Part shown: one piece after another, positions 6,285 through 30,009 of the stretch
How positions within the stretch are numbered: the stretch's first letter is position 1
How the letters are laid out: each line of letters starts with the position of its first letter
Assembly (NCBI GenBank): GCA_965231145.1
Contig: OZ246420.1
Coordinates: forward strand, 1,075,294 to 1,107,293
Source: Candidatus Saccharimonadota bacterium
GTDB lineage: Bacteria; Patescibacteriota; Gracilibacteria; Absconditabacterales; Absconditicoccaceae
Direction of reading: 5' to 3'
Length of the DNA: 32,000 bases
Translations under genes and position numbers: made by a program
Notes under the pieces: model-generated
What the model saw: only the letters and a program-made list of their open reading frames with translations
Databases searched by the model: none
What the model was told of the DNA's origin: nothing

Positions 6285-6643
6285 TCAATATAATAAGTGT
6301 TCAATTGCCAATTAACCATGTACTCTTTTTTCTGTCCATCTATTTAATAGACAAAAAAAAACAGTGTAAATGACACGTAGAGGCAGTGAGTTGTCCAATG
6401 ACAGCTTTTACCCTACACATTTACTTTAGTAAGTTTCCACCTATGGTTTTTCAAGACCTTAGGCTTGCGATAACCAACCCTTAGCGGGTAGCTCGAATTG
6501 AATTTATATCGTTTTCCTAGCCAATTGCAAGAGAAAAAGAGAGCAAAATAAGACACAAACTATCCATGGATTTTTCACCCGACATCCGTACATAGTTAAT
6601 ACAATATTTTTGATTCTCTTTTTTGTGTTACTTACCCGCAGCC

Positions 6644-7570
6644 ATGTTACACAAACTACGCTTACATGACGCACCCTTTCGCAATATAAAAAAAGGCATC
6701 AAGAACGTTGAAGCCAGACTCTTCGATGAGAAAAGACAACAGATACAGCCTTGAGATACCATTATATTTATCAATAGAAAGCATCCTGAACAGAAAATAC
6801 ACACAACTGTAATAGAACTTTTTCACTACCCAAGCTTCAATGCAATGTTCAAGGAGCTTCATGAAAAATATCGACCTCGGTCCTCACGAGAAGAGTTGGA
6901 AGATTCTATGCTACAATACTACTCTACTGAAGAAGAAAAGAAATATGGGGTGATTGGCATCAAAATACAACCATTCTCTCCACAAGAAGAGACGCTCGCT
7001 ACATACAATGAAAACATTGACGCATATATGGCAAACACCATATCTACCCCCTCAGAAATCTTAAAATATTGGATTAAACGCTCCTTACAATGAGTTCCTC
7101 ACACAGGCACTATCCTAGAAGTTGGCACATGAGGCGGAAGAGATGCTGATTATATCGAATCATTATGATTTAATATATTAAGGAGCGACGGAGCAACAGG
7201 CTTTGTGGAATACCATCGCAATATGGGAAAAAATGTTTTATTATACAATGTGCTCACCGACGAATTACACGATGAGTATGATCTTATTTTCGCTAATGCG
7301 GTACTACTCCACTTCCCTCACTCTGAAGTCGAACACATTCTCAAAAAATGGAAACAACATCTTACACCAACAGGAAAAATATCTCGATGTGTACAAGAGT
7401 GAGTTGGAGAACAATTGAAAGAAAATAAAAATATGAAGAGATATTTTTATTTCCGAAGCGAAGCTGAGGTAAAAGAAGTAATGAAAAATTTGTGATATAA
7501 AAATCTGGATGTATGGGTAGATGAACCTGAACCCGGAAAAAGATGGATACGCTGTATAGCAACTTTATAA
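6644..7570 (+). CDS. Fusion protein: N-terminal ASCH (PUA-like) domain plus C-terminal class I SAM-dependent methyltransferase
   Basis: One 308-codon frame results once six TGA codons are read as Gly. The N-terminal part (LHDAPFRNIKKGIKNVEARLFDEKRQQIQP-G-DTIIF...YYSTEEEKKYGVIGIKI) is ASCH-like. The C-terminal part carries methyltransferase motif I, ILEVGT-G-GGRDADYIESL-G-F, then YDLIFANAVLLHF. The gene holds 4 CGA and 1 CGG codons. Confidence 0.65.
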
Positions 7571-12259: not shown

Positions 12260-15200
12260 TTACTGTGACCATGTGAATGGGAAAGCACCAGTATTCTTGT
12301 AAGATGAAGTGTCATTGATAACAACGTCACCATTGTCAAGCTTATCAAGGTATGATACGTTTGTAAGGTTGAGACCCATAGGGTTAGAAGTTGTACCATT
12401 CAATGTCGCGATTGGATTAACAACCTTGATAGAGAATGTTATCGTAGCCCCATTAGAGATTTCAACTGGCATACTAGCACCTGCTCCGCTGAAGTTAATA
12501 GTACCAGCTGATCCAGAGTAGATAAGATCACCTCCAAGACCATTCTTGTACACATTAACAACTGGTGCAGCAGCACCGTAACCTGTTGTATTTACTAGAT
12601 CAAATGTGAATCCAGTAACTTGAACTCTATTACCCTTAGCAGTTACATCAAATCTTGCAAACTCAGAAGTCGAAGGAGTTACGTTTACCTTAGAAACAGA
12701 TACCGCACCTCTTGCGATCTTAGTAGACTGAGAAATAGCAACTGTAGGATTAGATACAGCAGTAACAAGCTGTCCATTAGATTTAGAGATAGCTCTTACA
12801 CCACTGTAAGTACCAGCAGTCTGATCAGCAATATCGTTAGCTGTATCGAATGCAAATGTGAATCCTGTAGTTACGTCACCTGTATTAAGAACTGAACTGA
12901 TGTCAGCCTTGATAGAGTAAGTCTTAGTCTGTGAAACAGCAAGACTGTTGTTTGACATACTTTCGAATGCAATTACACCGTTTCTGATTGTACCGAACCA
13001 AGAGTTAGTACCATCAGTAAGCTGTACATTGTTGATCTTGTTAGCAAGGTTTGTTCCGAGACCACCATTTGCCTTAACGTAGAGATCAGTGAGATCAACT
13101 GCATCGTTCTTACCTTCAAGGTTGAACTGAGCGATTGTCACGTTTTGCTGACCACCGTAAAGGAGTTGTGACTGGAGTGATGAGTTAGCTGCAACTTCTA
13201 CTGTAGCAGAACCATTGATAGTGAGTGTACCACCCGCTACGTCAGTTACTGTAACAGAATTAGAAGTTACTGTATCTAGAGCATCAACGTCAGTAAGCGT
13301 AAGCTTCAATGTATCAGTTGTACCAGCAGTGAAGTTACCTCTTACAGTCCATGATACTGGAGCGTTCTTCGCTACAGTAATATTGAGGCTAGAGAATGTG
13401 ATCTTACCGTTTTGGTATGTAGCAGTCTTAACAGCATTACCTTGCGCGTCGTAAAGAGTTGCAGTAAGCTTGTTGTTGAATGCGCTTTGTGGAACTACAC
13501 CAGCTGATGTTGCACCAGAAAGAGTAATCTGATTGATTCTAATAGAGTTAGCCTGAGATGTTGAGAATGTAGCACCGTAAAGGAGCTGATCCTGAGCACC
13601 GTCAACAACTGTCTTAGAAGAGATACCGTCAGTTCTTGAAACAGCAAGTTTAGAAGCTACGATAGTGATTGTTGCACCTTCGATAGAACCAACTGAAGCT
13701 GATCCAGAAACTGCGTTTTGGTTATTCTGATACTCTGCAGTGTCAAAACTGTCGAGTGTGAGAGGACCAAATTTGATAGTAGCAGCACCAGCGTTTGACT
13801 TAATGTCAGCTGTAAGCTCTACGTCAACTGTACCATTGATAGCTACTGAACCATCAAATGATGCAGCTGTAAGACCTGTTCCGCTATCTGCAGACCAAGT
13901 GAACGTAGAACCACCGATTCTAAGTTTGTATGAGTTAGCGATGTTACTTGCTCCTGTAGAAGCAGTGAACGCTAAAGCAATATCCTCGAGGTATACTGGA
14001 CTCTTAGCAGAGATAGTACCCTTAAGAAGAACTGAACCGTTAGTACCTGGAGAAATACTGTTAGAGAGTGAGAAAGCTGAATCTCTCTTGAACATTACAT
14101 CAGCACCATTTACTGTGTAAGTCTTAAGTGTTGGAGTTCCAGATACTCTTACTCTAAATGCAGTTGTTTCTTCGATAACATTGAGATCAGAAGTGTTTCT
14201 GAGTCTGAAGATATATGTATCACCATCAACACCGTCAACATAGTTAACAGTACCTCTGATGTAGTAGTTAGCAGTCTGTCCGTCCTTGATTTCGTCACCG
14301 TTACCAAGACCGAATGTAAGATCCTTACCATTCATAACTGTTACAGTTGATACCTTAGTACCGTTTCTGTAAAGAGCTACATTTGAAAGGCTAGTAAGAT
14401 CTCCATCACCATCCTGTCTAAATGTTACTGACTTGAAGCTAAGATCTCTTTCGTCAGCACCAGTAGAAGAATCGATAACTCTGAACTGACCAATTTCAAG
14501 ATCAGTAGCATCAGTAGCAGTTGCAGTAAGTCCTGCACCAGCTTCCTGGATAGTTACCAATGAAACAAGGTAGTTAGCAGTTCTAAGTGTTGGAGTAGTA
14601 ATCATACCAACTACATTAGCAGCAGTACTGTCGATAGATGTAGACTGGAACATATGTTCACCTCCTACATTAGCAGCAGCCATGTCAGCGTAAAGGTCGA
14701 TAGATTCAGTTGTTCCTGCCTTGATCACCCATGCTGGTGCGAAGCTAAGAGTAACTGTCTGATCAGAACTTACCGAAGCTCTAGAAGACACTCTGATACC
14801 GTCTTTTTCGAAGTATACTCTAGAAATGTCAGACGCGTTACCGAGTCCTGATCTCTTAAGAGTTACTGAATTAACAGTAATGTCCTTAGAACCTGCAGCA
14901 AAGTCTACAGTAGCGAACTTCACTGAACCTGCTTGAGGAACAGAAGAAAGGTTTGCTGGAGACGCAGAGTTCATTGAGATATTGAGGTTACCTTCTCTTA
15001 CAACGATAGGACCAGTAGAACCAGTACCATTGTTATTACAAAGAGTTGGATCAATATCACAAAGACCATTGTTGTCTATTGCCAATCTGTAGAGCATGAG
15101 CATCATGTCACCTCTAAGGATTGATTGACTAAGCATAGCGTACTTCATGATCCCCTTAGAGTTAAGGAGTTCGAAGTGAGCTTGTTCAGAAGACATAGGA

Positions 15201-15628
15201 TCAATTTCACCGAGCATACGAGATACTACAGTTGCAACCTGACCTCTTGTTACTTCTTGCTTAGGCATGAACTTACCATCGTGTCCCATCATGAGACCGA
15301 GGTTACAAGCAGCTGTGATGCTGTCAGTAAGAGTGTCGTCAGCCATAGCGGTATCTGTGAAATCGCAGCTTCCTGCAACTTCTTCGAGACCGAGTACTGA
15401 CATACCAAACTGGCTAGCAAATTTAGCAAATTGCTCTCTAGTAAGATTTGCGTAAGGCATAAATGTGTCTGTTCCGCTGTACTTTGTCAAACCTGCATCG
15501 TAACCCCAAGAGATCGCGTCGATCATTTCAGGATCAGTTACTACTGGAGCTCCGTAAGCGAGACCAGTAACGAGTTGACTAGCAACAACGGCAGCAGCAG
15601 CTGATGTAGCAATAAGCTTTTTCAACAT
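12260..15628 (-). CDS. Putative S-layer / cell-surface protein: signal peptide, three SLH-like repeats, then a long Ser/Thr/Gly/Asn-rich region of repeated beta-type modules
   Basis: The start is placed at MLKKLIATSAAAAVVASQLVTGLAYGAP (ATG 15626-15628). SLH-like segments are IDAISWGYDAGLTKYSGTDTFMPYANLTREQFAKFASQF, FTDTAMADDTLTDSITAACNLGLMMGHDGKFMPKQEVTRGQVATVVSRML, and a degenerate third ending ILRGDMMLMLYRL. The remaining ~900 aa is low in charged residues and shows recurring VTL..SG... and V.L.DG motifs. It is an uninterrupted 1122-codon frame with a strong terminator. Confidence 0.75.
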   Translation of the reverse strand: MLKKLIATSAAAAVVASQLVTGLAYGAPVVTDPEMIDAISWGYDAGLTKYSGTDTFMPYANLTREQFAKFASQFGMSVLGLEEVAGSCDFTDTAMADDTLTDSITAACNLGLMMGHDGKFMPKQEVTRGQVATVVSRMLGEIDPMSSEQAHFELLNSKGIMKYAMLSQSILRGDMMLMLYRLAIDNNGLCDIDPTLCNNNGTGSTGPIVVREGNLNISMNSASPANLSSVPQAGSVKFATVDFAAGSKDITVNSVTLKRSGLGNASDISRVYFEKDGIRVSSRASVSSDQTVTLSFAPAWVIKAGTTESIDLYADMAAANVGGEHMFQSTSIDSTAANVVGMITTPTLRTANYLVSLVTIQEAGAGLTATATDATDLEIGQFRVIDSSTGADERDLSFKSVTFRQDGDGDLTSLSNVALYRNGTKVSTVTVMNGKDLTFGLGNGDEIKDGQTANYYIRGTVNYVDGVDGDTYIFRLRNTSDLNVIEETTAFRVRVSGTPTLKTYTVNGADVMFKRDSAFSLSNSISPGTNGSVLLKGTISAKSPVYLEDIALAFTASTGASNIANSYKLRIGGSTFTWSADSGTGLTAASFDGSVAINGTVDVELTADIKSNAGAATIKFGPLTLDSFDTAEYQNNQNAVSGSASVGSIEGATITIVASKLAVSRTDGISSKTVVDGAQDQLLYGATFSTSQANSIRINQITLSGATSAGVVPQSAFNNKLTATLYDAQGNAVKTATYQNGKITFSSLNITVAKNAPVSWTVRGNFTAGTTDTLKLTLTDVDALDTVTSNSVTVTDVAGGTLTINGSATVEVAANSSLQSQLLYGGQQNVTIAQFNLEGKNDAVDLTDLYVKANGGLGTNLANKINNVQLTDGTNSWFGTIRNGVIAFESMSNNSLAVSQTKTYSIKADISSVLNTGDVTTGFTFAFDTANDIADQTAGTYSGVRAISKSNGQLVTAVSNPTVAISQSTKIARGAVSVSKVNVTPSTSEFARFDVTAKGNRVQVTGFTFDLVNTTGYGAAAPVVNVYKNGLGGDLIYSGSAGTINFSGAGASMPVEISNGATITFSIKVVNPIATLNGTTSNPMGLNLTNVSYLDKLDNGDVVINDTSSYKNTGAFPFTWSQ

Positions 15629-16178: not shown

Positions 16179-17669
16179 TTATCCAGACCTGCGCGACAAT
16201 AACACAATTGCTGTTATAAGTCCAAAAGTAACAATAAGTATGACAATTCTGGCTCGTCATGTTTCTGCATGTATAATAATACTATGATCAATACTTCGTT
16301 TATTGACAGCATAGATTCGCCGTACGGACCATAGCTGCGGATAAGCAAGTCGGCGGTACGCAGTAACACTATAGAGAAGTGCCGAGAAAAATCCATAGAT
16401 CATCACGAGCGGCACAAGCGGAACGATAAGCACATTCGACAAGATAGACACAAGATTGACGCGACTGGTAAAGAACAAAAGAGGCGTAAAAATACCGAGA
16501 GCAGCAGCAATGCTAGGCAACAAATAGAGATTCCGGAAACGACTTATCAGATCCTTCAACAATGCTTTATATTCACGAAATTTTATTTTCTTTGTAGTGT
16601 CTGCTCTTCGGCGCTGCGAAAAGAAAGCAAGTCATGCTAGCGCAGTAAAGCTAAAAATAAATCACAAATCATAAAGAAGATAGTAAGGGTTTCGTAGAAG
16701 CATGGCTACATAGACATACGCCATATTGCACCATACATGCAGCGCACGACCCAAAAAAACCGCACTGATGCTCAATAACGCCATAAGTGATGCGCGCACC
16801 ACTGAACTATCCCAACCACACAATGATGCATACATAATAACAGACAGAGCAAGAATCGCAGACCTAAGATAATAGGGCAAAAAGAACAACAATGCAGACA
16901 AAAAAGAAACAAGGAGCACTATATTTCATCCGCTGACCGCAATAATGTGGACAAGTCCTGACTCTACAAAAGAGCTATACTCCTCTTTCGAAAGATGCGA
17001 ACGATCACCCATAAACATCCCGAGAGACAATCCTAATACTCTTCCATCATAGAGCCCCTGATAGAGTCATATGAGCTGCTGACGTCGTGCGAGTAATCGA
17101 GATGACGAACCTTCGCCCACCACAATACCCTGCTCCTCATATAAAAATCACACTCTCTCTTTCATTATCATCCAACGATCCATGTCAAACTCTCGCTCTA
17201 CAGCGCCTACTAACGCGGCTTTTTGGCGCAAAGACAACCAGACAGGAGCCGCCCACCAATCTCCACTGAGAGAGATTATCTTCGGTTGCGCCACAGCAAA
17301 AACAATGCTTCCGAGGGGATAATAAGCATCGCTATAATAGAGAAAATCTCTTCCCTCTCTATCGCGAAAAACATATCTCTCACTCCCCTGATTTTCTATG
17401 ATCTCTCCAGTTCCTGAATATGTGGATCACACCACTCCCACCCTCTCCTGATATGAGGAGATAAAAAAAGACACGCTGGCGACAGTCAAAAAATATGTCA
17501 ATACGACAGATCAAATTTTTATAAAAGACAACTTAACGGATCTTTTTTGTAAAAACGACTGAACCAAAATTCCTACAATGAGAAAAAATCACACTCCCGC
17601 CGCTGGCCGAAAATTTCCGAAAAAAGTATGAAGCGCCACAAAAATACTTATCGACAATATGAACAACAT
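16179..17669 (-). CDS. comEC: ComEC/Rec2-family DNA internalisation channel, short form (496 aa, no C-terminal metallo-beta-lactamase domain)
   Basis: One frame joins the track ORFs 16257-16562 and 16662-16919 and an N-terminal region when TGA is read as Gly. Motifs are GLVHIIAVSG-G-NIVLL, CGWDSSVVRASLMAL and YDL-G-FIFSFTALA-G-L. The N-terminus has TM helices and an OB-like region (EFDMDRWMIMKERV-G-FLYE). The stop is the TAA at 16179-16181. Confidence 0.8.
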
Positions 17670-17803
17670 TTTTTGTTTTGGTTTGCACAATTAAATATGA
17701 CATTTTAGACAGAAGATTGACAAACAACCTTGCACAATTTTATTTACTTTTTTGATCCTCATTAGTTTACTTCAATTTTTGTTTTTAATCTTTTATTTTT
17801 CAT

Positions 17804-18763
17804 TTACCCGAGATTGTACTCCTCTAAAAATTTTTGTACTTTTTCCTGATAAGCGATCGATTTTGCTTTTATGCCCAACAAATGAAGGATAAAAAGGAAA
17901 TGAAGACGAGAGCCGACAGCAGTAGACGACCTAGACATAAATGTCAACGTCGTGTCAATATCGTTAAACCATCGTTCGTAACTTATTATTTCAGGAATGA
18001 TAACTTTTAGTTGTCATAGCATGTCGACATCTTCTTGTCAACATGGAAAGAACACACATTGACAATGTCACCAGAGATCGACAGACAGCTTAATCGTTTC
18101 TAAGTCTGTCAAAGAGTGGCGATATGGTGTCAAGTTTATTAATCCATATTTATGGCTTTTAGACTGATCTTTTATGTCATTTTGACAATGTTGCCACCTA
18201 TTGACAACTTCTGTCGCAAAATCAGGGTGGTGGACAAGGTTGTCGTGATTATTTCAAAGGTATTTAGCCAATATTTCGTATGATAACCTTTCCCTAGCAA
18301 CCAGTTTTTGACACCTTTTGACTGTCAACTTGTAAAGGAGCTTCATCCGTCGACGAGTAGGAGTCCCAAATCCACCCAACATGACAACATTTTTTCTTAT
18401 AAAATCTGTAGCAAAAAGGATATAATAATTTCGTCATCCATAAAACCATCCGCGAGCTTGAGTAAAAACTTCTCATCATCCGAAGAATTTTAATGCTTTA
18501 GGATTGCACAATCATTTCGTGATGATTTTCTTGTAATTGTTCTTTTGAATGCTTTCTAGTTTGCACAAATCTATATCTAAATAATGGCGATTTTTGTCTA
18601 TTCGGCCGTCAAATCGCTTCTTATCGCCCACCTCTATATAGAGTTTTTCTATCGTAGGGTAGTGAGCAAAAATTCGATTTATGACACCGAAAACCAGTAT
18701 CTCGTCTCCAAAATTTTTATACCCATAATAGCATTTAAGATATCCTTCTTTGGGGTCACGCAT
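17804..18763 (-). CDS. csaB: Polysaccharide pyruvyl transferase, CsaB-like
   Basis: The 319-codon frame runs through multiple TGA codons. The N-terminus YLKCYYGYKNFGDEILVFGVINRI matches the G(Y)YG..N.GDE motif. It continues FF-G-G-GEVFTQARGWFYG-G and MLGGFGTP (the GQGIGP-equivalent position). Confidence 0.6.
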
Positions 18764-18824: not shown

Positions 18825-21287
18825 CTATTGTTCATCCTTGGCATACCACTGATCAACCCATTTGTTTCGCTTATTTGATAATTCTCAGCTAAACAAAGCC
18901 AATCCTTTGCCGACGAAATAGTCTATAAAGACTGATGGGTCGGTCTTAAATGCAAATTGCTTTTTCAAATCTCCTATAGCAAAGGAATATCCTTCTAATG
19001 ACAAGTTCTTACCTCAAGATAGAGAGTTCATGGCCTTTATATTGGCGTCTAAAAGCTCTTGCAGAGCAACAATATCGGGATTTTGCCGTACCATAGCCCA
19101 GTTTTCCCTAAGATAGTTCTGGACAATCTTATCATAGCTTTTCCAGATCTTCGTCTCAAGTTGTGAAGCTGAAAGCTTGGTTTTATAGTCGGTGCGGACC
19201 GACTTTACCTGCTGATAGTACTTCCTCCATTTAGCCTCCAATGTTTCCTTTGTCTTCTTGTATCTTTCCTGCAGAGTCTTGTATTGAGAGGTCTTTTTAT
19301 CAAATTTCTTCTGCAGAGAATCTATTTTCTTCTGATATGACGCTTGTTTTTTTGCATCAAGAGCAGGGGAGAGATCTTGACATGAAAAAGGCGTCTCGCC
19401 AAAAAATGCACATACCTGTCCAGTCTGGACAGCGAGGCGTAGCTGCTTCATTCGTGAGAAGTCGGTTATACCTGAGAGAGTATTGTCGGAAGCAATATTG
19501 CCAGTAAGACCTATCCAGACACCTGCTTCAGGTTGTCCATAACAGAAAGTGTCCTGGACTATAGCATTGTGTTCAAGGGTAATACATGTGGGCTTGTTGG
19601 TAAAGCCAAATGTGCCTTTTACTGTCTGCTTGTCTCAGGGCATCTGGAGAAGTCATCCTAGCATCGTTTTCTTTGAGCCAACGCGAATAAGAAACGAAGA
19701 GATATCTATAGGACCGCCCGATACAAGCTCCACCGTAACCTGCTCATTATGCTCGTCCTTCCCGTCTCCATCTGCCATGACAGCGACAATCCTTACCTGA
19801 TTGGACAATCACGACACAACTTCGCCATTGAACTCTTCGGCTCAGTCGACAAGCTCTATCTCGCCTGCATTTGTCTTTTTATATGCTATTCATCCCTTGT
19901 TCACCGCAAGGCCAAAGGCTGAGATTTGGTCTTTCAGATCGTAGTAACGATCTTTCCGCTTTTTATATAACCCCTGATAATAGGAGTTGTCGACACTTGT
20001 TTTCGTTGCCAAGGAGGAGGAAGAATATGCTGAGAAATATGCCAACGCTTTCTCAGAAAATCATGGGGTTGGAAAATCTTTCTGTATTGGTTCACTCCCG
20101 CTCATATACCATGAACGACCAGAGGCTGAGCCTGTATAATGAACGTTCGCATAGACAGAACCGAAAGCATCTGTCACAACGAGACTCTCTCCTCCGTCTG
20201 TAAGAGACACTGAATCCGTGAGTAAAACCATAGAGGGGTCTACAAAACCAGATAGGGAGTCGGCAAAAACAACATATTGACCTGCGTGGACATTGAGGTG
20301 GACTGTCTTAGCTGTCGAGCTAGAACCGATTCATTGAATGATCAAACTACCGGAAAAAGACGACACAAAAAACAATTCCATGTATTCAGGCAATGTGTCA
20401 TTAGTCGGGTGTATTTCACTTATTATAATACCACTATTAAAAGAAGCCTCGCCGGTGGAAATATTGTCTCAAGTGAGAATATTGCCAGTAAGGGGAGGAG
20501 TGGTTTCACTCGCGGACGGAAGTGGAGGCATTGGTTGATATGTCATGATCTGTCCGGGATTGGCAATCCAGGTACCGGAAATATTTGTTACTCTCCCGGT
20601 GTTGGTGGAAGAAACAGCAACAACTCATCCAGACCAAATCTTTTCGAAACCATAGTTATTGGGCAGGACAGAAAGGATAGATGCCTCTACAGAGAATGTG
20701 TCCAGAAGTTGTCATGAGCTATACAAACCGACAGCAAGAGCATTTGTATCAGAAATACTGAGTCCCAATGATGATCCCTGAACGACCCCTCTGTCTATAA
20801 ACTGCGCCATTGTGTCTCACCAGACAAATGTCGAACCAACAGGAATATGTATCAATCAGAGAGAAAGATCTGATGACTTCACGCCTTTTACTACGAGTGG
20901 TCATATGAACTCTCATGATCAGATATTCGAGATCTCGAACCACTCGTCGCTCCCATCAAAAAATATTTCTGACACGATAAGCGCCGCCTCGCCAGTGAAA
21001 AGAGTCTGCCCAGTCTCTACAAGTAACGCTGACACTATGTCGTCAGCAAGAGCTGTCTCAACAAAGACACCCGACGTAGTGAATAAATCACTAGCAACTC
21101 ATGACAGCTCGACAGAAGTGGGGAGAGGTGCTTCGGAAACAAGCAACTCCGGAACTTGTTCCATAATCAGTCAGTCTGAAAGAGCCTGCAAAGAGAGAGT
21201 AGGAATCTCTATCGACTCCGCAAACAATAAGAAATAGCTATGAAGCGTCATCAACAAAATAAGGCCAAAGCATAATCATTTTTTCAT
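18825..21287 (-). CDS. Secreted protein with three lamin-tail-domain (LTD)-like modules and a C-terminal Lys/Gln-rich coiled coil
   Basis: The single 820-codon frame is visible only with TGA read as Gly (I counted about 29 in-frame TGA). The signal peptide is MKK-G-LCFGLILLMTLHSYFLLFA. LTD-like segments are ALIVSEIFFDGSDEWFEISNI-G-S-G-EFI, GIIISEIHPTNDTLPEYMELFFVSSFSGSLIIQ-G-I, and VRIVAVMADGDGKDEHNEQVTVELVSGGPIDISSFLIRV. The tail is the track ORF 19014-19451. Confidence 0.7.
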
Positions 21288-21442: not shown

Positions 21443-21471
21443 TTGACAGGTTTCGATCGTTACTGTATAAT
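21443..21471 (+). promoter_or_regulatory. Consensus sigma-70-type promoter (TTGACA-N17-TATAAT)
   Basis: TTGACA at 21443-21448, a 17-nt spacer, and TATAAT at 21466-21471, 35 nt upstream of the ATG at 21506. Confidence 0.6.
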
Positions 21472-21505
21472 CATACCATAAACCTTTTATCTGGTTTTCA
21501 TACCA

Positions 21506-22906
21506 ATGGCTGATCAACAAACTCCTATCCAAGGGGACACTCAAACTACTCCTGTGCAAGCCGACCCACAGGACCTACTTGGAAACATTTCTATCGACCT
21601 TCCTCAGGCTCCTGGAGAAGAAACTGTGGTATCTCCAACGCCAGCTAACGACATGGCGAATGTTACTCCTACGAGCGATACGCTTTCTGCTGATCTTGGA
21701 AGCATTACACTTCCGGAAGATTCGGTTGCACAGGAGGCGGTGCCAACAGAGCAGGGCTCTTTGGATCTTTCTAGCATTTCTGCTGAGCCAGTAGCCTCAA
21801 CTCCTGAAATAGTTGATTCTCTTCCTACAATTGCTCCGCAAGAATCAGTGGCTGCGCCAGCTGAAGTAAATACGCTTGAGACTATCATGGCTGCGCCGTT
21901 AGAAGCTAGCGTTACTGAAACTCCTACTGTCACAGAGACGGCGCCACTTATCATGGAAACCGCTCCTACAGTTTCTCCTATAGAAGAACAAATTCCTGTT
22001 GCTCCGGCCCCAGAAGTAGTACAACCTCTACCGACAGAAGAGCCGATAGCAGAGCTTTCTCCCATCGCCACGAGCGAAACATCTGTTCCTGCGGTAACTG
22101 ATGTTATGAGCGTCAATCTTGATTCGCTTACGAATGACGTTGCTCCTGCAGCCGCCGAACCGCCTGCAGAAGTTGCGCCCGTTACAGCCTCAGTAACACT
22201 CCCTGAAATGACTGTAGTGTCATGACAACACGCCACAACATCGTCAAAGAAAAAAACCCTCGCTATGGCTGGGGCACTCATCCTGCTTCTTGCTGTAGGA
22301 GCATTCGTCTTCAAGACGATGATGCCTGATGAGTCAAGCAAGCTCTATGCAAGCGTACTGAGCATATTTGGAGCTGCGCCTGCTACGCAGGAAAGCATCC
22401 TCAAACAACCTGAAAGCGTTATGACAACAAGCGGAGCGATAGACACCCTGATTGATAGACAAACAACAGGAAGCGTAGATACATGACTCGCTACTACAGT
22501 TGCTGCTATCGAAAGCACAAGTGGAACTGATACTCTTTCTGGAATGAGTGCTACTGGTACAAGCGATATGATTACCAGCAATACGAATAGCTGAATGAAT
22601 AACTCTTCTGCAATCGCGACACTAAGTTGATCTATGAGCGCGGAAGATGCAGAGTCGGCACTTACTACCATCAACGAGAAGAGCAAGAAATCTCTCGCTC
22701 TTGCCAAAAAGAATGATGTCAAAGACGCCGCAGATCGTCTCTATAAAATATTTAAAGAGAGTACAAATCTTCTTGAAACGCTTGCAAACGGAGCAGACAT
22801 CTCTACGATACCTGATATAGAGCAGCAGATCAACACGCTGCAACAAAATTTAAATCAGGCTATCATCATCCTCAATGTCACCTCAAGCAGCAGCGCTCAG
22901 TCTTAG
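21506..22906 (+). CDS. Hypothetical single-pass membrane protein with a ~240-aa acidic Pro/Thr/Glu/Ala-rich low-complexity N-terminus
   Basis: The track ORFs 21506-22225, 22265-22486 and 22634-22906 join through four TGA codons into 466 codons. The TM segment is LAMAGALILLLAVGAFVF. The C-terminal part is Ser/Thr-rich, then helical (KKSLALAKKNDVKDAADRLYKIFKESTNLLETL). Confidence 0.6.
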
Positions 22907-22910
22907 CAGC

Positions 22911-23777
22911 ATGATTAAAAAATTTCAAACGTATCTTGAATACGAAAAAAATGTCAGTCCTAAAACATATGAAAATTATACGCTCTGGTTAGAGCGTTTT
23001 TTAAAGCACACCGGAGATATCAGCGTAAAAGATATCACGTCATTAGACGTGTTAGATTTTAGAATGAAGCTGACAGAAAGAAAATTATCGAAGAAAACCA
23101 TAAACTATCATATCGTTGCTATCAGATCATTTTTGAAGTTTTGTTTAAAGCATGATATTGATGTAATCTCTCCGGACAAGCTGGAACTTGGGAAAACACC
23201 ACCAAGAGTTGTTAACTTTCTGACGGAAGCAGAGGTGGAAAGCGTACTATGAATGCCCGCACAGCGAGAGCAGAAAAATGCCGTCAAGCGCTTAAGAGAC
23301 GAAGCAATATTGCTTGTGCTCTATGGAACGGGACTGCGCGTAACGGAGCTTATTTGATTGAAAAAAACAGACATTAAACTAGATAGCAATCAGTTTTGGG
23401 TCGTAGGAAAGTGATCGAAACTAAGGGCGGTTTTCTTTACAAAGCGCGCAAGAGAAAAACTTGAAGAGTATCTCAAAGCAAGAACCGATGAAAGTCCTTT
23501 CTTGTTTATAAATCTCAGTAACTTTAAAAGCGGTAAGTGACTCACGAGAAATTCTGTGGAAGAGCTGGTAAGACAATACGCACGCTATGCAGGCATCGAA
23601 AAGAAAGTGACGCCACATACACTTCGTCATAGCTTTGCAACATCACTTATCAAAAAAGGAGCAGACATAAGATCGGTACAAACGCTTCTCGGACATGCTT
23701 CTATTACCACAACACAAATCTATACACACGTTGATGACAAATTTCTGCAGGAAGTACATCAGCTTATGGATAACTAA
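22911..23777 (+). CDS. xerC: Tyrosine recombinase XerC/XerD family
   Basis: The start is [23 protein letters not shown]. Fragments join through TGA on conserved Gly residues ([32 protein letters not shown]). The catalytic region is [39 protein letters not shown]. Confidence 0.88.
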
Positions 23778-23925: not shown

Positions 23926-24456
23926 TTATTTGCTAGCATAGCCAGCCATATTGGGCTCTAATTCTTTATAGAACAGAGCTATTTCATCTTCAGTTGCTTC
24001 GCGCACCGACTGAGTAACTTTTTCATACATTACCGCAACAGAAGACGACCCATCTGAAGTGGTAATCATATAAAAGAGATTACCTTCTGGTTGTTGCCAA
24101 AGCATCTCTGTGCCTCCCGGGAACACGCCTACGAGCATTTTGTTGCATACTCTATAAACGGGGCAGAAAAGCGCATAATTTTGCACTGTCGGAATAAGAG
24201 AGTCTAACTTCTTACGAAGAGGAATTTCTTCTTCCATCTTGTACCACCACGACTCCTTGTTAGCCGAAGCATTTAAAGAGCTGAGCATTGGACTCTTTTC
24301 TTTATACGTCTTCTGGTGATAGGTCTTCTTTATGTTTACCTTATATTTGGCAAACATTTCCGGCAGGTCAAATTGAGAATAGTTAAAGAGCGGCTGCGCA
24401 TTGGTTGGCAACGCATAGCAAATGAGAATGAGGACGAGTATTTTAAACTGTTTCAT
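23926..24456 (-). CDS. Hypothetical secreted protein (176 aa)
   Basis: Intact ORF with signal peptide MKQFKILVLILICYALPTNAQ. It has its own TTGACT-N16-TATAAT promoter and its own terminator. Confidence 0.6.
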   Translation of the reverse strand: MKQFKILVLILICYALPTNAQPLFNYSQFDLPEMFAKYKVNIKKTYHQKTYKEKSPMLSSLNASANKESWWYKMEEEIPLRKKLDSLIPTVQNYALFCPVYRVCNKMLVGVFPGGTEMLWQQPEGNLFYMITTSDGSSSVAVMYEKVTQSVREATEDEIALFYKELEPNMAGYASK

Positions 24457-24488
24457 AGGCTTTATTTTTTATTTTGTTGTGAGGCTAC

Positions 24489-25352: not shown

Positions 25353-26051
25353 CTACGAACTACTTCTTCCTATGACGACACCCCAAATCACTATGCGAGG
25401 ATAGAGCTTTTTCAACGCTTTTGCCGCAGCATTAATCGTCGATCATGTTGTCGTTACATCGTCAACAATAAGGACAAATTCATCTCATTTTAATGAGATA
25501 TTGCTACGTAATGAAAAAACGTCTTCCAGATTTTTCATCCTCTTTATACGAGAGAGGAATGCCTGTATGCGAGTATGTCTGTTTTTCATGAGCAATGGTT
25601 CATACGTCATTCATAATTTCTGTGCGACGCCAGAGGCAAGGAGGTCTGACTGGTTGTACCCTTTGATAAAATATTTTCTGTATCGATGAGAAGGGATCGA
25701 TGTGATGACGACACGCTTTGTGCGGAATCATTTTTGTAATGTCTGATTTGTTTGGATAACAAGCGAAAGACGATCAACAAGAAACGAAGCGACATCGTAG
25801 CGATGATAATATTTGAGCTGCAAGATAAGTTTTTTTAATAAATCGTGATATGCAAACCCGATAGCGATGCCCTGATAAGCGACCTCATGTCTATAGTCTA
25901 GATGTACCGCAAAATCCTGAGAGAAGCGATGGCTCACCGGACAAAGCTCCTGATGTGGTTGAAGCGTCTTTTTGCATTGCGAACACAAATAATCACCAGC
26001 ACTCTGACACCCTATACACAGCTTTGGAAATAGAAGATCGATGAGTTTCAT
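25353..26051 (-). CDS. comF: ComF-family protein (zinc finger plus phosphoribosyltransferase-like domain)
   Basis: MKLIDLLFPKLCIGCQSAGDYLCSQCKK..., extended through TGA codons past the track ORF end. Motifs are KGYNQSDLLA and EFVLIVDDVTTT-G-STINAAAKAL. An alternative start lies at 26093. Confidence 0.8.
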
Positions 26052-26177
26052 TTTATCTTTGTAATAAAAAAATATCTGCAGTGAAGCAGACATTTCATGT
26101 TCAGTAAGATAATATAAATCTATGATAGTTTTCCTTTAATTGTTCATTCGTAATTATTAATTTGTAATTGAATTACA

Positions 26178-28336: not shown

Positions 28337-29887
28337 TTATACATTTTCTACAAACATCGTTTTGCTTCTATATTGCATAGCTTCTGCAATGTGGGGTACA
28401 CCGACAATTTCTACTCATTCGACATCTGCTATAGTACGGGCAAGCTTGAGCATACGATGGATGACGCGTCAAGACAAATGGAGTTTTTTTGCAGCTTGTT
28501 TCAGGAAATTTTCTGCTTGTTCATCGAGAACTATGTACTTTTGAATTTCCTTAGACGTTACTCATGCATTAGAAAAAATACCGGTTCCTACATATCTTTT
28601 TTGTTGTATCTCCCAGGCATGCATTACTTTTTCACGTAATAATTCAGAGCTTACTCACTGGATCTTTTCAAAGAGCGTATCGACATTTTCACGTGGTATC
28701 TCTAGAATCATATCAATCCTATCCAGCAGTGGTCATGAGATCTTCGACTGATAACGTTTAATATCAAGCAATCAACAAACACATGATTTTTCAGGATCTT
28801 TATAGTAGCCACACTTACATGGATTCATCGCAGAGATAAACATAAAATGCGCAGGATACCAGACTGATCACGCTGCACGAGAGATCGTTATCTGTTTGTC
28901 TTCTATGGGCTGACGAAGCACCTCCAAGACTTCACGTGGAAACTCAGGAAGCTCGTCGAAAAAGAGTATTCACTTATGGGCAAGCGACACTTCTCATGGT
29001 TGCAGGCTGGCTCATCATCATATGATAGACACTTTACTCGCTGTATGATGCACCGGACGAAAAGGGCGCTGCGTCACTAAGGGTTGCTCCTTGCTTAACT
29101 TTCCGACGATAGAATAAATCTGTGAGACTTCTATCATTTCATCGAAATGAAGCGGCGGTAAGATAGACTGAAGGGCATGTGAGAGCAGCGTCTTTCATGA
29201 GCCTGGAGCGCCGACCATGAGCACATTGTGTCATCCAGCGGCAGCGATAGCAAGCGCGCGCTTTGCAACAAGATGTCACTTGATGCTACTAAAATCTACT
29301 GGGAATGTTGTAGCGCTTGTAGCAAGATCACTGAGAGATTTTGTAGTAACGAACGGCTCTCTTTTCTTTCCTGCAATAAAAAATTCTATGAGTTCAGCAA
29401 AGGTAGAGAGCGGATAGATCGTAATTCATTGGATATATTCTAACTCATATATATTGTCGCTGGGGATGAAGAAGATCGTATATCCTCTTTTCATGGCTGC
29501 GATAACTGCAGGCAAAAGACCCGTAATTCTTCTGACGGATCCGTCGAGTCAAAGTTCACCAAAGAAAAGAGTTTCTGCAAGAGTTGCTTCATGATGGATA
29601 TGTTCACTAATAAGAAAAAGTATCGCTGCAGCCATGGGCAGATCAAACTGGGTTCATACTTTTTTGATATCAGACGGTGCTAAGTTGAGAATGATTTTCC
29701 TGGGCGGAAGCTCGACGCCGGCATTACGAAACGTAGCACGCAAACGTTCTTTCGACTCCTTAATAGCCGCATCGGGCAGTCATATAATTTCTATAGTTGG
29801 AATCGCCTTATTACTATCTGCCTCTATGGTGATCTCGTGACCCTCAAGTCCAAAAGTAGCAAATGTTTTGACATATGACTGTGGCAT
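28337..29887 (-). CDS. comM: ComM/YifB-family Mg-chelatase-like AAA+ ATPase
   Basis: The 516-codon frame is recovered with ~19 TGA codons read as Gly. Motifs are [53 protein letters not shown] (Walker A), [29 protein letters not shown] and [11 protein letters not shown]. It has no in-frame CGA or CGG. Confidence 0.9.
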
Positions 29888-30009
29888 CTGTTTTTGTTTT
29901 GGAAAAATAAATTGTCTCTCATCGTAGAAATTGAACCATGCGTTACAAGAGAGGAGACGAGAATAGTCTGGAGAATATTATTTTATAAAAATATGATTTT
30001 TTTCTTAAC

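What the first reader, a model, noticed from the sequence alone, without database searches (positions are those of the whole stretch)
18825..21287. Hidden 820-aa secreted triple lamin-tail-domain protein heading a block with csaB and comEC
In the standard-code track this gene is visible only as a 145-aa tail plus antisense shadow ORFs. With TGA read as Gly it is one frame: a signal peptide, three LTD-like modules (ISEI...DEWFEI.N, ISEIHP...EYMELF, DEHNEQVTVEL...ISSFLI), then a Lys/Gln-rich coiled coil.
It lies upstream of csaB-like and comEC on the same strand, with short gaps (61 nt and 134 nt). LTD modules recur in secreted or surface CPR proteins and in some ComEC and nuclease architectures.
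This could be a surface DNA-capture or presentation component feeding the ComEC channel. That link is hypothesis only.
Basis: partly seen in the sequence, partly recalled or inferred. Interest (0 to 1): 0.65.

Follow-up and report, generated by a model that had tools for sequence, protein, structure and literature searches.

The report
Secreted multi-LTD protein beside comEC
A gene hidden by an alternative genetic code (TGA = glycine) encodes an 820-residue secreted protein with three lamin-tail-like modules, and it belongs to a family that nearly always sits just upstream of a cell-wall pyruvyl transferase and the DNA-uptake channel ComEC, so it is a candidate outside-the-cell helper of DNA uptake in ultra-small bacteria.

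Summary
On the minus strand, 18825-21287 is one 820-codon frame once TGA is read as Gly (20 in-frame TGA). It has an N-terminal signal-like segment, three beta-sandwich modules and a Lys/Gln-rich helix. It lies 61 nt upstream of a CsaB-like gene, which lies 134 nt upstream of comEC.

The LTD assignment is supported only indirectly. The window protein gets no Pfam LTD hit. Orthologs get sub-threshold hits, one distant member passes the threshold, and module consensus sequences hit only LTD. An AlphaFold model of the 47%-identical ortholog matches lamin tail structures best.

An exhaustive search found 579 relatives, and all those sampled come from TGA-recoded genomes. ComEC lies downstream on the same strand in 9 of 11 informative lineages. 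A CsaB-like gene is adjacent in 11 of 14. Seventeen of the 152 best relatives carry a staphylococcal-nuclease domain; the window protein does not.

The most likely function is a wall-associated extracellular accessory of DNA acquisition through a ComEC that lacks its nuclease domain. This is inferred, not shown. The LTD modules are acidic, which argues against direct DNA binding by them. A purely cell-envelope role remains a serious rival.

The parts
18825..21287 (-). Whole gene: 820-aa secreted multi-LTD-like protein (code 25; 20 TGA=Gly codons; TAG stop)
21219..21287 (-). Residues 1-23: signal-peptide-like N-terminus (MKK plus a hydrophobic core, ...LFA|ES)
   Evidence: Only TM-like segment in the protein. 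84 of 101 full-length relatives have an N-terminal hydrophobic stretch. No dedicated signal-peptide predictor was available.
20523..20996 (-). Module 1 (residues 98-255): long LTD-like beta-sandwich, pI 4.1
   Evidence: Aligns to P0008 residues 31-176 (iE 1e-8), a region that Pfam LTD covers at profile positions 6-105. The module consensus hits LTD at E 2e-4. hhalign of M1 against M2 gives 99.2% probability.
20052..20402 (-). Module 2 (residues 296-412): LTD-like beta-sandwich, pI 4.3
   Evidence: The module consensus hits LTD at profile positions 8-108, E 8e-4. It is homologous to M1, hhalign E 1.7e-19. The corresponding part of the ortholog model has pLDDT of about 90.
19830..20051 (-). Residues 413-486: linker with the conserved basic helix YYQGLYKKRKDRYYDLK...FGLA, specific to the nuclease-less subgroup
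   Evidence: helix 373-393 in the ortholog model; 23 relatives have it, none of them nuclease-bearing.
19518..19829 (-). Module 3 (residues 487-590): short LTD-like module with the conserved Cys pair C568/C582
   Evidence: Pfam LTD stretches in homologs fall on this module type: L005 500-556, L004 571-638, P0010 486-609 and P0153 851-910. The consensus hits LTD at E 0.035. It matches M1 and M2 only partially in hhalign.
19368..19517 (-). Residues 591-640: small beta unit with the second conserved Cys pair (C626/C636)
   Evidence: Cys columns are invariant or nearly invariant in alignments A1, A2 and A6. Three strands are seen in the ortholog model.
19083..19367 (-). Residues 641-735: Lys/Gln-rich long helix (predicted coiled coil), net charge +15, pI 10
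   Evidence: Residues 584-668 of the ortholog form a helix in the model.
18825..19082 (-). Residues 736-820: helical C-terminal end domain, conserved across the family including nuclease-bearing members
17804..18763 (-). CsaB-like polysaccharide pyruvyl transferase (319 aa), 61 nt downstream
   Evidence: PF04230 scores 40.3 bits, above the gathering threshold of 25.3. TIGR03609 CsaB matches over its full length but below its cut-off.
16179..17669 (-). ComEC (496 aa): Competence channel domain only, no metallo-beta-lactamase domain; 134 nt downstream of csaB-like
   Evidence: PF03772 at 2.3e-38. TIGR00360 is above its cut-off.
17670..17803 (-). csaB-comEC gap: no terminator-like fold. It holds two conserved TTGTGCAA copies and a weak promoter-like site (17723-17694).

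Best explanation
The gene encodes a Sec-exported, probably disulfide-stabilised cell-surface protein. It consists of three acidic lamin-tail-type beta-sandwich modules followed by a strongly basic long helix and a helical end domain.

It belongs to a family that, among the members sampled here, occurs only in TGA-recoded genomes. Code 25 is known, from my own knowledge, only in Gracilibacteria and Absconditabacteria.

Its members are encoded at the head of a conserved same-strand cluster: LTD protein, CsaB-like pyruvyl transferase, ComEC.

Proposed mechanism (inferred, not shown):
- The protein is held at the wall, possibly on the polymer modified by the CsaB-like enzyme. It acts as the extracellular partner of a ComEC channel that lacks its own nuclease domain.
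- In relatives that carry a thermonuclease domain, the protein would cut extracellular or host DNA for import.
- In nuclease-less versions such as this one, it would act as a scaffold or receptor. The basic helix, not the LTD modules, is the likeliest contact for DNA or for an anionic wall polymer.
For: Shown:
- Gene, code and architecture.
- LTD fold and homology at family level.
- Family size of 579 at E<=1e-3, with 19-62 in-frame TGA in every sampled member.
- ComEC downstream on the same strand in 9 of 11 lineages with enough sequence, despite differing upstream neighbours and GC of 26-44%. A CsaB-like gene is adjacent in 11 of 14.
- Gaps to the next gene (CsaB-like, or ComEC in L003) of only 3-22 nt in L012, L013 and L003.
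- No terminator-like hairpin in the window's two gaps: fold z-scores are -0.03 and +1.65.
- 17 of the 152 best relatives carry a SNase domain, with E down to 3e-23 against S. aureus nuclease. The DGDT, R, D..E and R catalytic motifs are readable in P0081.
- The same C-terminal domains occur in nuclease-bearing and nuclease-less members.
- The neighbouring ComECs carry the Competence domain only.

From papers:
- LTD plus nuclease is a known extracellular DNA-metabolism architecture, as in ExeM (PMC6085458) and Hvo_1477 (PMC5118699).

TGA codon share: 27% of Gly codons, similar to ComEC (25%) and CsaB (33%) and unlike the TGA-free SLH protein. This fits a moderately expressed machine part rather than a bulk surface layer.
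Against: - The window protein has no nuclease domain and no recognisable DNA-binding domain.
- Its three LTD modules are acidic, with net charges of -9, -9 and -4.
- The most constant neighbour is a cell-wall enzyme, and MurG recurs nearby. The cluster could therefore be about the envelope.
- Two lineages (L015, L016) lack ComEC nearby.
- Loci were sampled by availability, and no background rate of ComEC adjacency was computed.
- Fold evidence comes from the 47% ortholog, translated with TGA as Trp. Foldseek E-values are only about 1e-3.
- There are no expression or biochemical data.
Confidence: 0.45

Rival explanations
1. It is a cell-envelope protein with no role in DNA uptake. This would be a wall-associated structural, spacer or host-adhesion protein whose display depends on the CsaB-like modification of a wall polymer. 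ComEC would be a neighbour only because it is another envelope or membrane component.
For: - A CsaB-like gene is the most conserved neighbour, adjacent in 11 of 14 lineages.
- MurG, a GT2 transferase and LCP-family genes recur nearby.
- An SLH-domain 1122-aa protein lies further downstream in the window and in L005.
- Tandem LTD/Ig-like modules are typical of surface proteins, and the ExeM paper cites Mans et al. 2004 for a suggested membrane-directing role of LTD.
- The modules are acidic.
Against: - The protein has no SLH domain or any other known wall anchor.
- The SLH protein is adjacent only in the closest relative.
- Independent nuclease fusions in 17 of 152 relatives and ComEC linkage in 9 of 11 lineages are not explained by this reading.
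- Its TGA usage is unlike that of the abundant SLH protein.
Confidence: 0.3
2. The three genes are functionally unrelated. The cluster would be inherited gene order within one recoded clade, and the LTD protein would have some other extracellular job, for example binding a host surface or a polysaccharide.
For: All sampled members come from one TGA-recoded group. The closest relative is collinear over more than 15 kb, so part of the synteny is simple shared ancestry. A weak promoter-like site and a conserved TTGTGCAA pair precede comEC, so it may have its own regulation.
Against: Upstream and downstream flanks differ between lineages while the trio persists at 25-30% protein identity and GC of 26-44%. 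Very short gaps in several lineages suggest co-transcription.
Confidence: 0.2
3. It is not a real gene. The long frame would be an artefact of reading TGA as sense.
For: Under the standard code only fragments are seen.
Against: Hundreds of homologs have the same architecture. TGA positions face Gly codons in orthologs. The model is confident, with modules at pLDDT of about 90. The whole window needs code 25.
Confidence: 0.01

Closest known systems
Extracellular LTD-nuclease proteins: Shewanella ExeM (its paper says ExeM is conserved in Vibrio; from my own knowledge the V. cholerae homolog is Xds) and Haloferax volcanii Hvo_1477 (LTD + thermonuclease)
   Same: They share a secreted or membrane-associated location and N-terminal LTD module(s). 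Family relatives of the window protein (17 of 152) combine LTD modules with a staphylococcal-type nuclease, as Hvo_1477 does. All are linked to extracellular DNA metabolism.
   Different: The window protein has no nuclease domain. It has three LTD-like modules plus a family-specific Cys-containing unit, a basic coiled coil and a helical end domain. It sits in a conserved cluster with CsaB-like and ComEC genes, which is not described for ExeM or Hvo_1477 in the passages read. Pfam LTD is below threshold.
Lamin tail domain (Pfam PF00932; lamin A/C and B1 Ig-like tails, PDB 1IFR and 3JT0)
   Same: The fold matches. The ortholog model's best PDB matches are lamin B1 and A/C tails, with probability 1.0 and TM 0.5-0.64 over about 105-118 columns. 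LTD is the only Pfam family hit by the module consensus sequences.
   Different: Sequence identity is 11-15%. The window protein itself does not reach any reportable Pfam score.
Accessory extracellular competence factors of Gram-positive bacteria (ComEA DNA receptor; EndA/NucA nucleases; the metallo-beta-lactamase domain of ComEC)
   Same: The position in the proposed pathway is the same: outside the membrane, next to ComEC, where dsDNA is bound, cut and one strand degraded. The ComEC here lacks the lactamase-type nuclease domain (PMC6744442; PMC8579336 abstract).
   Different: There is no sequence or domain relationship to ComEA, EndA or NucA (no such Pfam or NCBIfam hits). The analogy is functional and inferred only.
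CsaB / SLH system of Bacillus (pyruvylated secondary cell-wall polymer anchoring SLH proteins; from my own knowledge of Mesnage et al. 2000)
   Same: A CsaB-like pyruvyl transferase is encoded next to a secreted surface protein gene, and an SLH-domain protein lies in the same block in the window.
   Different: The LTD protein has no SLH domain. The CsaB-like protein is far below the TIGR03609 equivalog cut-off, 56 against 213 bits.

Membership tests
Lamin tail domain (PF00932) | Match to the Pfam LTD model at or above the gathering score (34.3 bits) | tested here: not met
   The window protein and its three excised modules give no LTD hit, even at E<=10. Homologs retranslated with code 25 score 24.7-29.2 bits. 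The distant family member P0008 scores 44.1 bits.
Lamin tail domain (PF00932) | Profile-level similarity of each module type to LTD over the whole domain | tested here: inconclusive
   Consensus sequences of the M1, M2 and M3 module HMMs (130, 123 and 247 modules) hit LTD as the best family, over profile positions 5-107, 8-108 and 7-107. E-values are 2e-4, 8e-4 and 0.035, all below threshold. Profile searches against PDB sequences found no lamin.
Lamin tail domain (PF00932) | Ig-like beta-sandwich fold of the lamin tail type | tested here: met
   The AF2 model of ortholog P0001 (47% identical, 40-sequence alignment) has a mean pLDDT of 74.5, with modules at about 90. Among its top 14 Foldseek PDB hits, 11 are lamin B1, lamin A/C or mouse lamin tails, with probability 0.99-1.0 and TM to target 0.48-0.64. 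This was tested on the ortholog, not on the window sequence, and the output does not say which module matched.
Extracellular LTD-nuclease enzymes (ExeM / Hvo_1477 type) | A nuclease catalytic domain (SNase or EEP) in the same polypeptide | tested here: not met
   No SNase, EEP or other nuclease hit in the window protein. Only about 75 residues lie between M2 and M3, and they show no relation to SNase. A SNase domain is present in 17 of 152 relatives.
ComEC/Rec2 (the neighbour at 16179-17669) | Competence channel domain PF03772 / TIGR00360 | tested here: met
   PF03772 scores 132.5 bits (gathering threshold 23), and TIGR00360 scores 51.5 bits (cut-off 36.5). No Lactamase_B domain is found, and DUF4131 is not detected.
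CsaB polysaccharide pyruvyl transferase (the neighbour at 17804-18763) | PF04230 domain; TIGR03609 equivalog score | tested here: inconclusive
   PF04230 scores 40.3 bits, above the gathering threshold of 25.3. TIGR03609 matches positions 6-289 of 301 but scores only 56 bits against a cut-off of 213. The fold and family are met; equivalence to CsaB is not.
SLH-anchored surface proteins | SLH domain(s) in the protein | tested here: not met
   No SLH hit in the LTD protein. The separate 1122-aa protein at 12260-15628 does have SLH.
DNA-binding function of the protein | Direct binding of DNA, or contact with ComEC | not testable with these tools
   Only charge could be computed. The LTD modules have pI 4.1-4.9, and the 641-735 helix has pI 10 and net charge +15.

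The most novel reading that the evidence does not exclude
This family may be the missing extracellular half of the DNA-import machine of TGA-recoded CPR bacteria. Members with a thermonuclease domain would do the cutting and strand degradation that ComEC's lactamase domain or EndA does elsewhere. Nuclease-less members such as this one would be the DNA receptor or scaffold, standing in for ComEA. They would dock through the basic helix and be tethered to a wall polymer pyruvylated by the co-encoded CsaB-like enzyme.
Probability: 0.2. Interest if true: 0.75.

Novelty: new variant of a known kind. Interest (0 to 1): 0.5.

Why it matters
CPR bacteria cannot make nucleotides and are thought to live on imported DNA. 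Their ComEC lacks the nuclease domain that processes incoming DNA in model bacteria (PMC6744442).

A conserved, previously unannotated surface protein family encoded directly upstream of comEC, with nuclease fusions in some members, gives a concrete candidate for how DNA is captured and processed outside the cell in these organisms. It can be tested with recombinant proteins and metatranscriptomes.

The case also shows how much is lost when code-25 genomes are read with the wrong table. Many database copies of this family read as if TGA had been translated as Trp (median Trp content 4.4%), or are broken into fragments.

Tried and rejected
- **Word-indexed homolog searches.** They returned only 2-4 relatives. 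The exhaustive profile search was needed to see the family.
- **PDB sequence searches.** Searches with the protein and with module profiles found nothing relevant.
- **First AlphaFold run.** With a 4-sequence alignment it was unusable, pLDDT 38.
- **Nuclease remnant idea.** I tested whether the conserved YYQ..LYKKRKDRYY helix is a remnant of the nuclease's C-terminal helix. A profile of that region finds nothing in nuclease-bearing members, so the idea was rejected.
- **Terminators and stable RNA structure in the two intergenic gaps.** None was found, and fold energies are no better than shuffles.
- **Promoter for the LTD gene.** No site of 9/12 or better lies on the minus strand upstream of the ATG. 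By eye there is only an 8/12 candidate.
- **ATTGTGCAA motif.** With one mismatch it is not enriched window-wide. Only the exact, position-conserved copies near csaB and comEC are notable.
- **SLH protein adjacency.** It is not conserved beyond the closest relative.
Full report
**1. The observation**

Under the standard code, the region 18825-21287 shows only a 145-aa minus-strand ORF (19014-19451) and several plus-strand shadow ORFs of 110-146 aa. Under table 25 it is a single minus-strand frame. The ATG at 21287 gives 820 residues, 20 of them encoded by TGA, ending in TAG.

The recoding is real, for three reasons:
- Long ORFs in the window sum to three times more residues under table 25 than under table 11.
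- All 22 genes end in TAA or TAG.
- Where window genes are aligned with their orthologs in locus L005, TGA faces a GGN glycine codon 22 times, another TGA 11 times and Trp never.

TGA makes up 0-7% of Gly codons in ribosomal proteins, EF-Tu and the SLH protein. It makes up 17-54% in the other genes that use it. The target gene has 27%, close to CsaB-like (33%) and ComEC (25%).

**2. Anatomy of the protein**

- Residues 5-23 are the only membrane-like hydrophobic stretch. They follow MKK and end in LFA|ES, which is signal-peptide-like. No dedicated predictor was available.
- Three beta-rich modules follow: M1 at 98-255, M2 at 296-412 and M3 at 487-590.
- A conserved basic helix (YYQGLYKKRKDRYYDLK...) lies between M2 and M3.
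- After M3 comes a small beta unit. Two conserved Cys pairs (568/582 and 626/636) fit an extracellular, disulfide-bonded protein.
- Residues 641-735 form a long Lys/Gln-rich helix with net charge +15 and pI 10. The end domain is helical.
- The three modules are acidic, with pI 4.1, 4.3 and 4.9.

**3. Are the modules lamin tail domains?**

Evidence against, at the level of the window protein:
- Pfam gives no LTD hit for the window protein or for its excised modules, even at E<=10.

Evidence for, at the level of the family:
- Homologs retranslated with code 25 give sub-threshold LTD hits of 24.7-29.2 bits, against a gathering score of 34.3.
- Of 42 diverse family members, 16 hit LTD, with a best E of 3e-12.
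- P0008 scores 44.1 bits. The match spans the whole LTD profile at residues 31-129, a region that window M1 aligns to with iE 1e-8.
- LTD stretches in P0010, P0153, L004 and L005 fall on M3-type modules.
- Consensus sequences of module HMMs built from 130, 123 and 247 modules hit LTD as the best Pfam family over its full length. E-values are 2e-4, 8e-4 and 0.035.
- M1 and M2 are clearly homologous: hhalign gives 99.2% probability and E 1.7e-19. M3 shares only the C-terminal strand motif with them.
- An AlphaFold model of the 47%-identical ortholog P0001, made with a 40-sequence alignment, reached a mean pLDDT of 74.5, with the modules at about 90.
- Its best PDB matches are the Ig-like tails of lamin B1 and lamin A/C, with probability 1.0, TM to target 0.5-0.64 and E of about 1e-3.

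I conclude that the modules are divergent LTD-type beta-sandwiches. There are three caveats. The window sequence itself fails the Pfam test. The model is of an ortholog in which TGA was translated as Trp. The Foldseek output does not say which module matched.

**4. The family**

Word-indexed searches found only four relatives. The exhaustive profile search found 579 proteins at E<=1e-3 and 91 at E<=1e-30, mostly 800-1500 aa long.

Every sampled gene has 19-62 in-frame TGA codons. The median Trp content of the database translations is 4.4%, which indicates TGA read as Trp. All sampled members therefore come from TGA-recoded genomes. From my own knowledge, code 25 is known only in Gracilibacteria and Absconditabacteria.

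The shared architecture, in order, is:
- a signal-like N-terminus;
- one or two long LTD modules, then an M2-type module;
- variable inserts;
- one to five short LTD modules;
- the Cys-containing unit and the helical C-terminal domains.

Seventeen of the 152 best hits also carry a staphylococcal-nuclease domain between short LTD modules. E-values against S. aureus nuclease go down to 3e-23, and Pfam SNase down to 1.8e-22. The metal-binding and catalytic motifs are readable in P0081.

The window protein has no such domain. The 75 residues at the equivalent place are unrelated to SNase.

**5. Gene neighbourhood**

In the window, the gene is followed on the same strand by:
- a CsaB-like pyruvyl transferase, after a 61-nt gap;
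- ComEC, after a further 134-nt gap. It is 496 aa with the Competence domain only;
- tRNA-Arg;
- an SLH-domain protein of 1122 aa.

Neither gap has a terminator-like hairpin or any fold better than shuffled sequence. A weak promoter-like site (9/12) and two conserved TTGTGCAA copies precede comEC.

The arrangement in the 16 loci from relatives is as follows:

| Locus or loci | Gene order |
|---|---|
| L001, L002, L005 (47% identity) | LTD, CsaB, ComEC; collinear with the window |
| L010, L013, L014, L017 | LTD, CsaB, ComEC (L013 with two ORFs between CsaB and ComEC) |
| L011, L012 | Same trio, with small inserted ORFs or a GT2 gene |
| L003 | LTD directly followed by ComEC, 21 nt apart |
| L004, L006, L007, L009 | LTD, CsaB, then the contig ends |
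| L008 | Contig ends inside the LTD gene; not informative |
| L015, L016 | No ComEC nearby |

The tallies are:
- ComEC lies downstream on the same strand in 9 of 11 lineages with enough sequence.
- A CsaB-like gene is adjacent in 11 of 14.
- Upstream neighbours differ (XerC-like, TilS/YceD, MurG, Fic, Bro-N).
- GC ranges from 26% to 44%, and protein identity falls to 25-30%.
- Gaps to the next gene of 3-22 nt in L012, L013 and L003 suggest co-transcription.

However, the sample was chosen by availability, and no background rate was computed.

MurG recurs nearby. So do ComM/YifB and, in the window and its closest relative, a ComF-family gene.

**6. Mechanism**

Two independent lines tie the family to extracellular DNA: the nuclease fusions in relatives, and the conserved linkage to comEC.

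Papers add three points:
- The lactamase-like domain of ComEC is a nuclease important for transformation (PMC8579336 abstract).
- LTD plus nuclease is a known extracellular DNA-metabolism design: ExeM (PMC6085458) and Hvo_1477 (PMC5118699).

My best reading (confidence 0.45) is a wall-associated extracellular accessory of ComEC-dependent DNA acquisition. Nuclease-bearing members would cut DNA. Nuclease-less members such as this one would serve as a scaffold or receptor. The basic helix is the plausible contact for nucleic acid or wall polymer, and the CsaB-like enzyme would prepare the wall polymer that holds the protein. All of these steps are inferred.

Several things count against it. The LTD modules are acidic. 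This protein has no DNA-binding or nuclease domain. The more constant neighbour is a wall enzyme. Two loci are exceptions.

The main rival (0.3) is a purely envelope or adhesion role. A third possibility (0.2) is inherited gene order without functional coupling.

**7. Comparison and novelty**

The protein works most like the non-catalytic part of LTD-nuclease exoenzymes. It is not a member of that group, because the nuclease is absent. It is LTD-like by fold and by family-level evidence, but it fails the Pfam threshold.

I found no paper in the library that combines 'lamin tail domain' with any of the CPR terms I searched, and none that describes an LTD-CsaB-ComEC cluster. I rate it a new variant of a known kind, of moderate interest.

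Noticed in passing
window 17683-17691, 17730-17738 (csaB-comEC gap) and 18504-18512, 18561-18569 (inside csaB-like), minus strand: The 8-mer TTGTGCAA occurs four times, all on the minus strand, as two pairs spaced 47 and 57 nt apart. The last copy lies about 14 nt before the comEC ATG. The same four positions and spacings are kept in L005/L001/L002 and in L006, but not in more distant loci. It may be an operator or promoter element for comEC.
   Followed up: partly
window 12260-15628 (-): A 1122-aa SLH-domain protein, probably an S-layer-type surface protein, has no TGA among its 104 Gly codons. S3, L4 and EF-Tu likewise have none, while most other genes use TGA for 17-54% of Gly. TGA(Gly) seems to be avoided in highly expressed genes.
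   Followed up: partly
window 21443-21471 (+) and 21506-22906 (+): A perfect TTGACA-17-TATAAT site lies 35 nt upstream of a divergently transcribed 466-aa protein. That protein is acidic and Pro/Thr/Ala-rich, has one central membrane segment and has no Pfam hit. It is conserved next to the LTD gene in L001/L005.
   Followed up: no
window 25353-26135 (-) and 28337-29977 (-): A ComF-family protein (double zinc ribbon plus phosphoribosyltransferase) and a YifB/ComM-type Mg-chelatase-like ATPase lie within 9 kb of comEC. ComM-like genes also lie 5-6 kb upstream of the LTD gene in L009 and L010. ComM uses TGA for 54% of its Gly codons.
   Followed up: partly
L011 8963-9879; L012 14174-14545: Small GIY-YIG and '23S rRNA intervening sequence protein' ORFs are inserted between the LTD gene and csaB-like in L011, and before comEC in L012. 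They look like mobile insertions inside the conserved cluster.
   Followed up: no
window 6596-7570 (+): A fusion of an ASCH domain with a class I SAM methyltransferase domain (308 aa).
   Followed up: no
window 22854-23777 (+) and 21482-22906 (+): The open frame of the XerC/D-like recombinase overlaps the end of the 466-aa gene by about 50 nt. The true start of the recombinase was not determined.
   Followed up: no
window 23926-24468 (-): A 176-aa protein with a clear signal peptide, no Pfam hit and no TGA codons. It is conserved in L001/L005 (208 aa).
   Followed up: no
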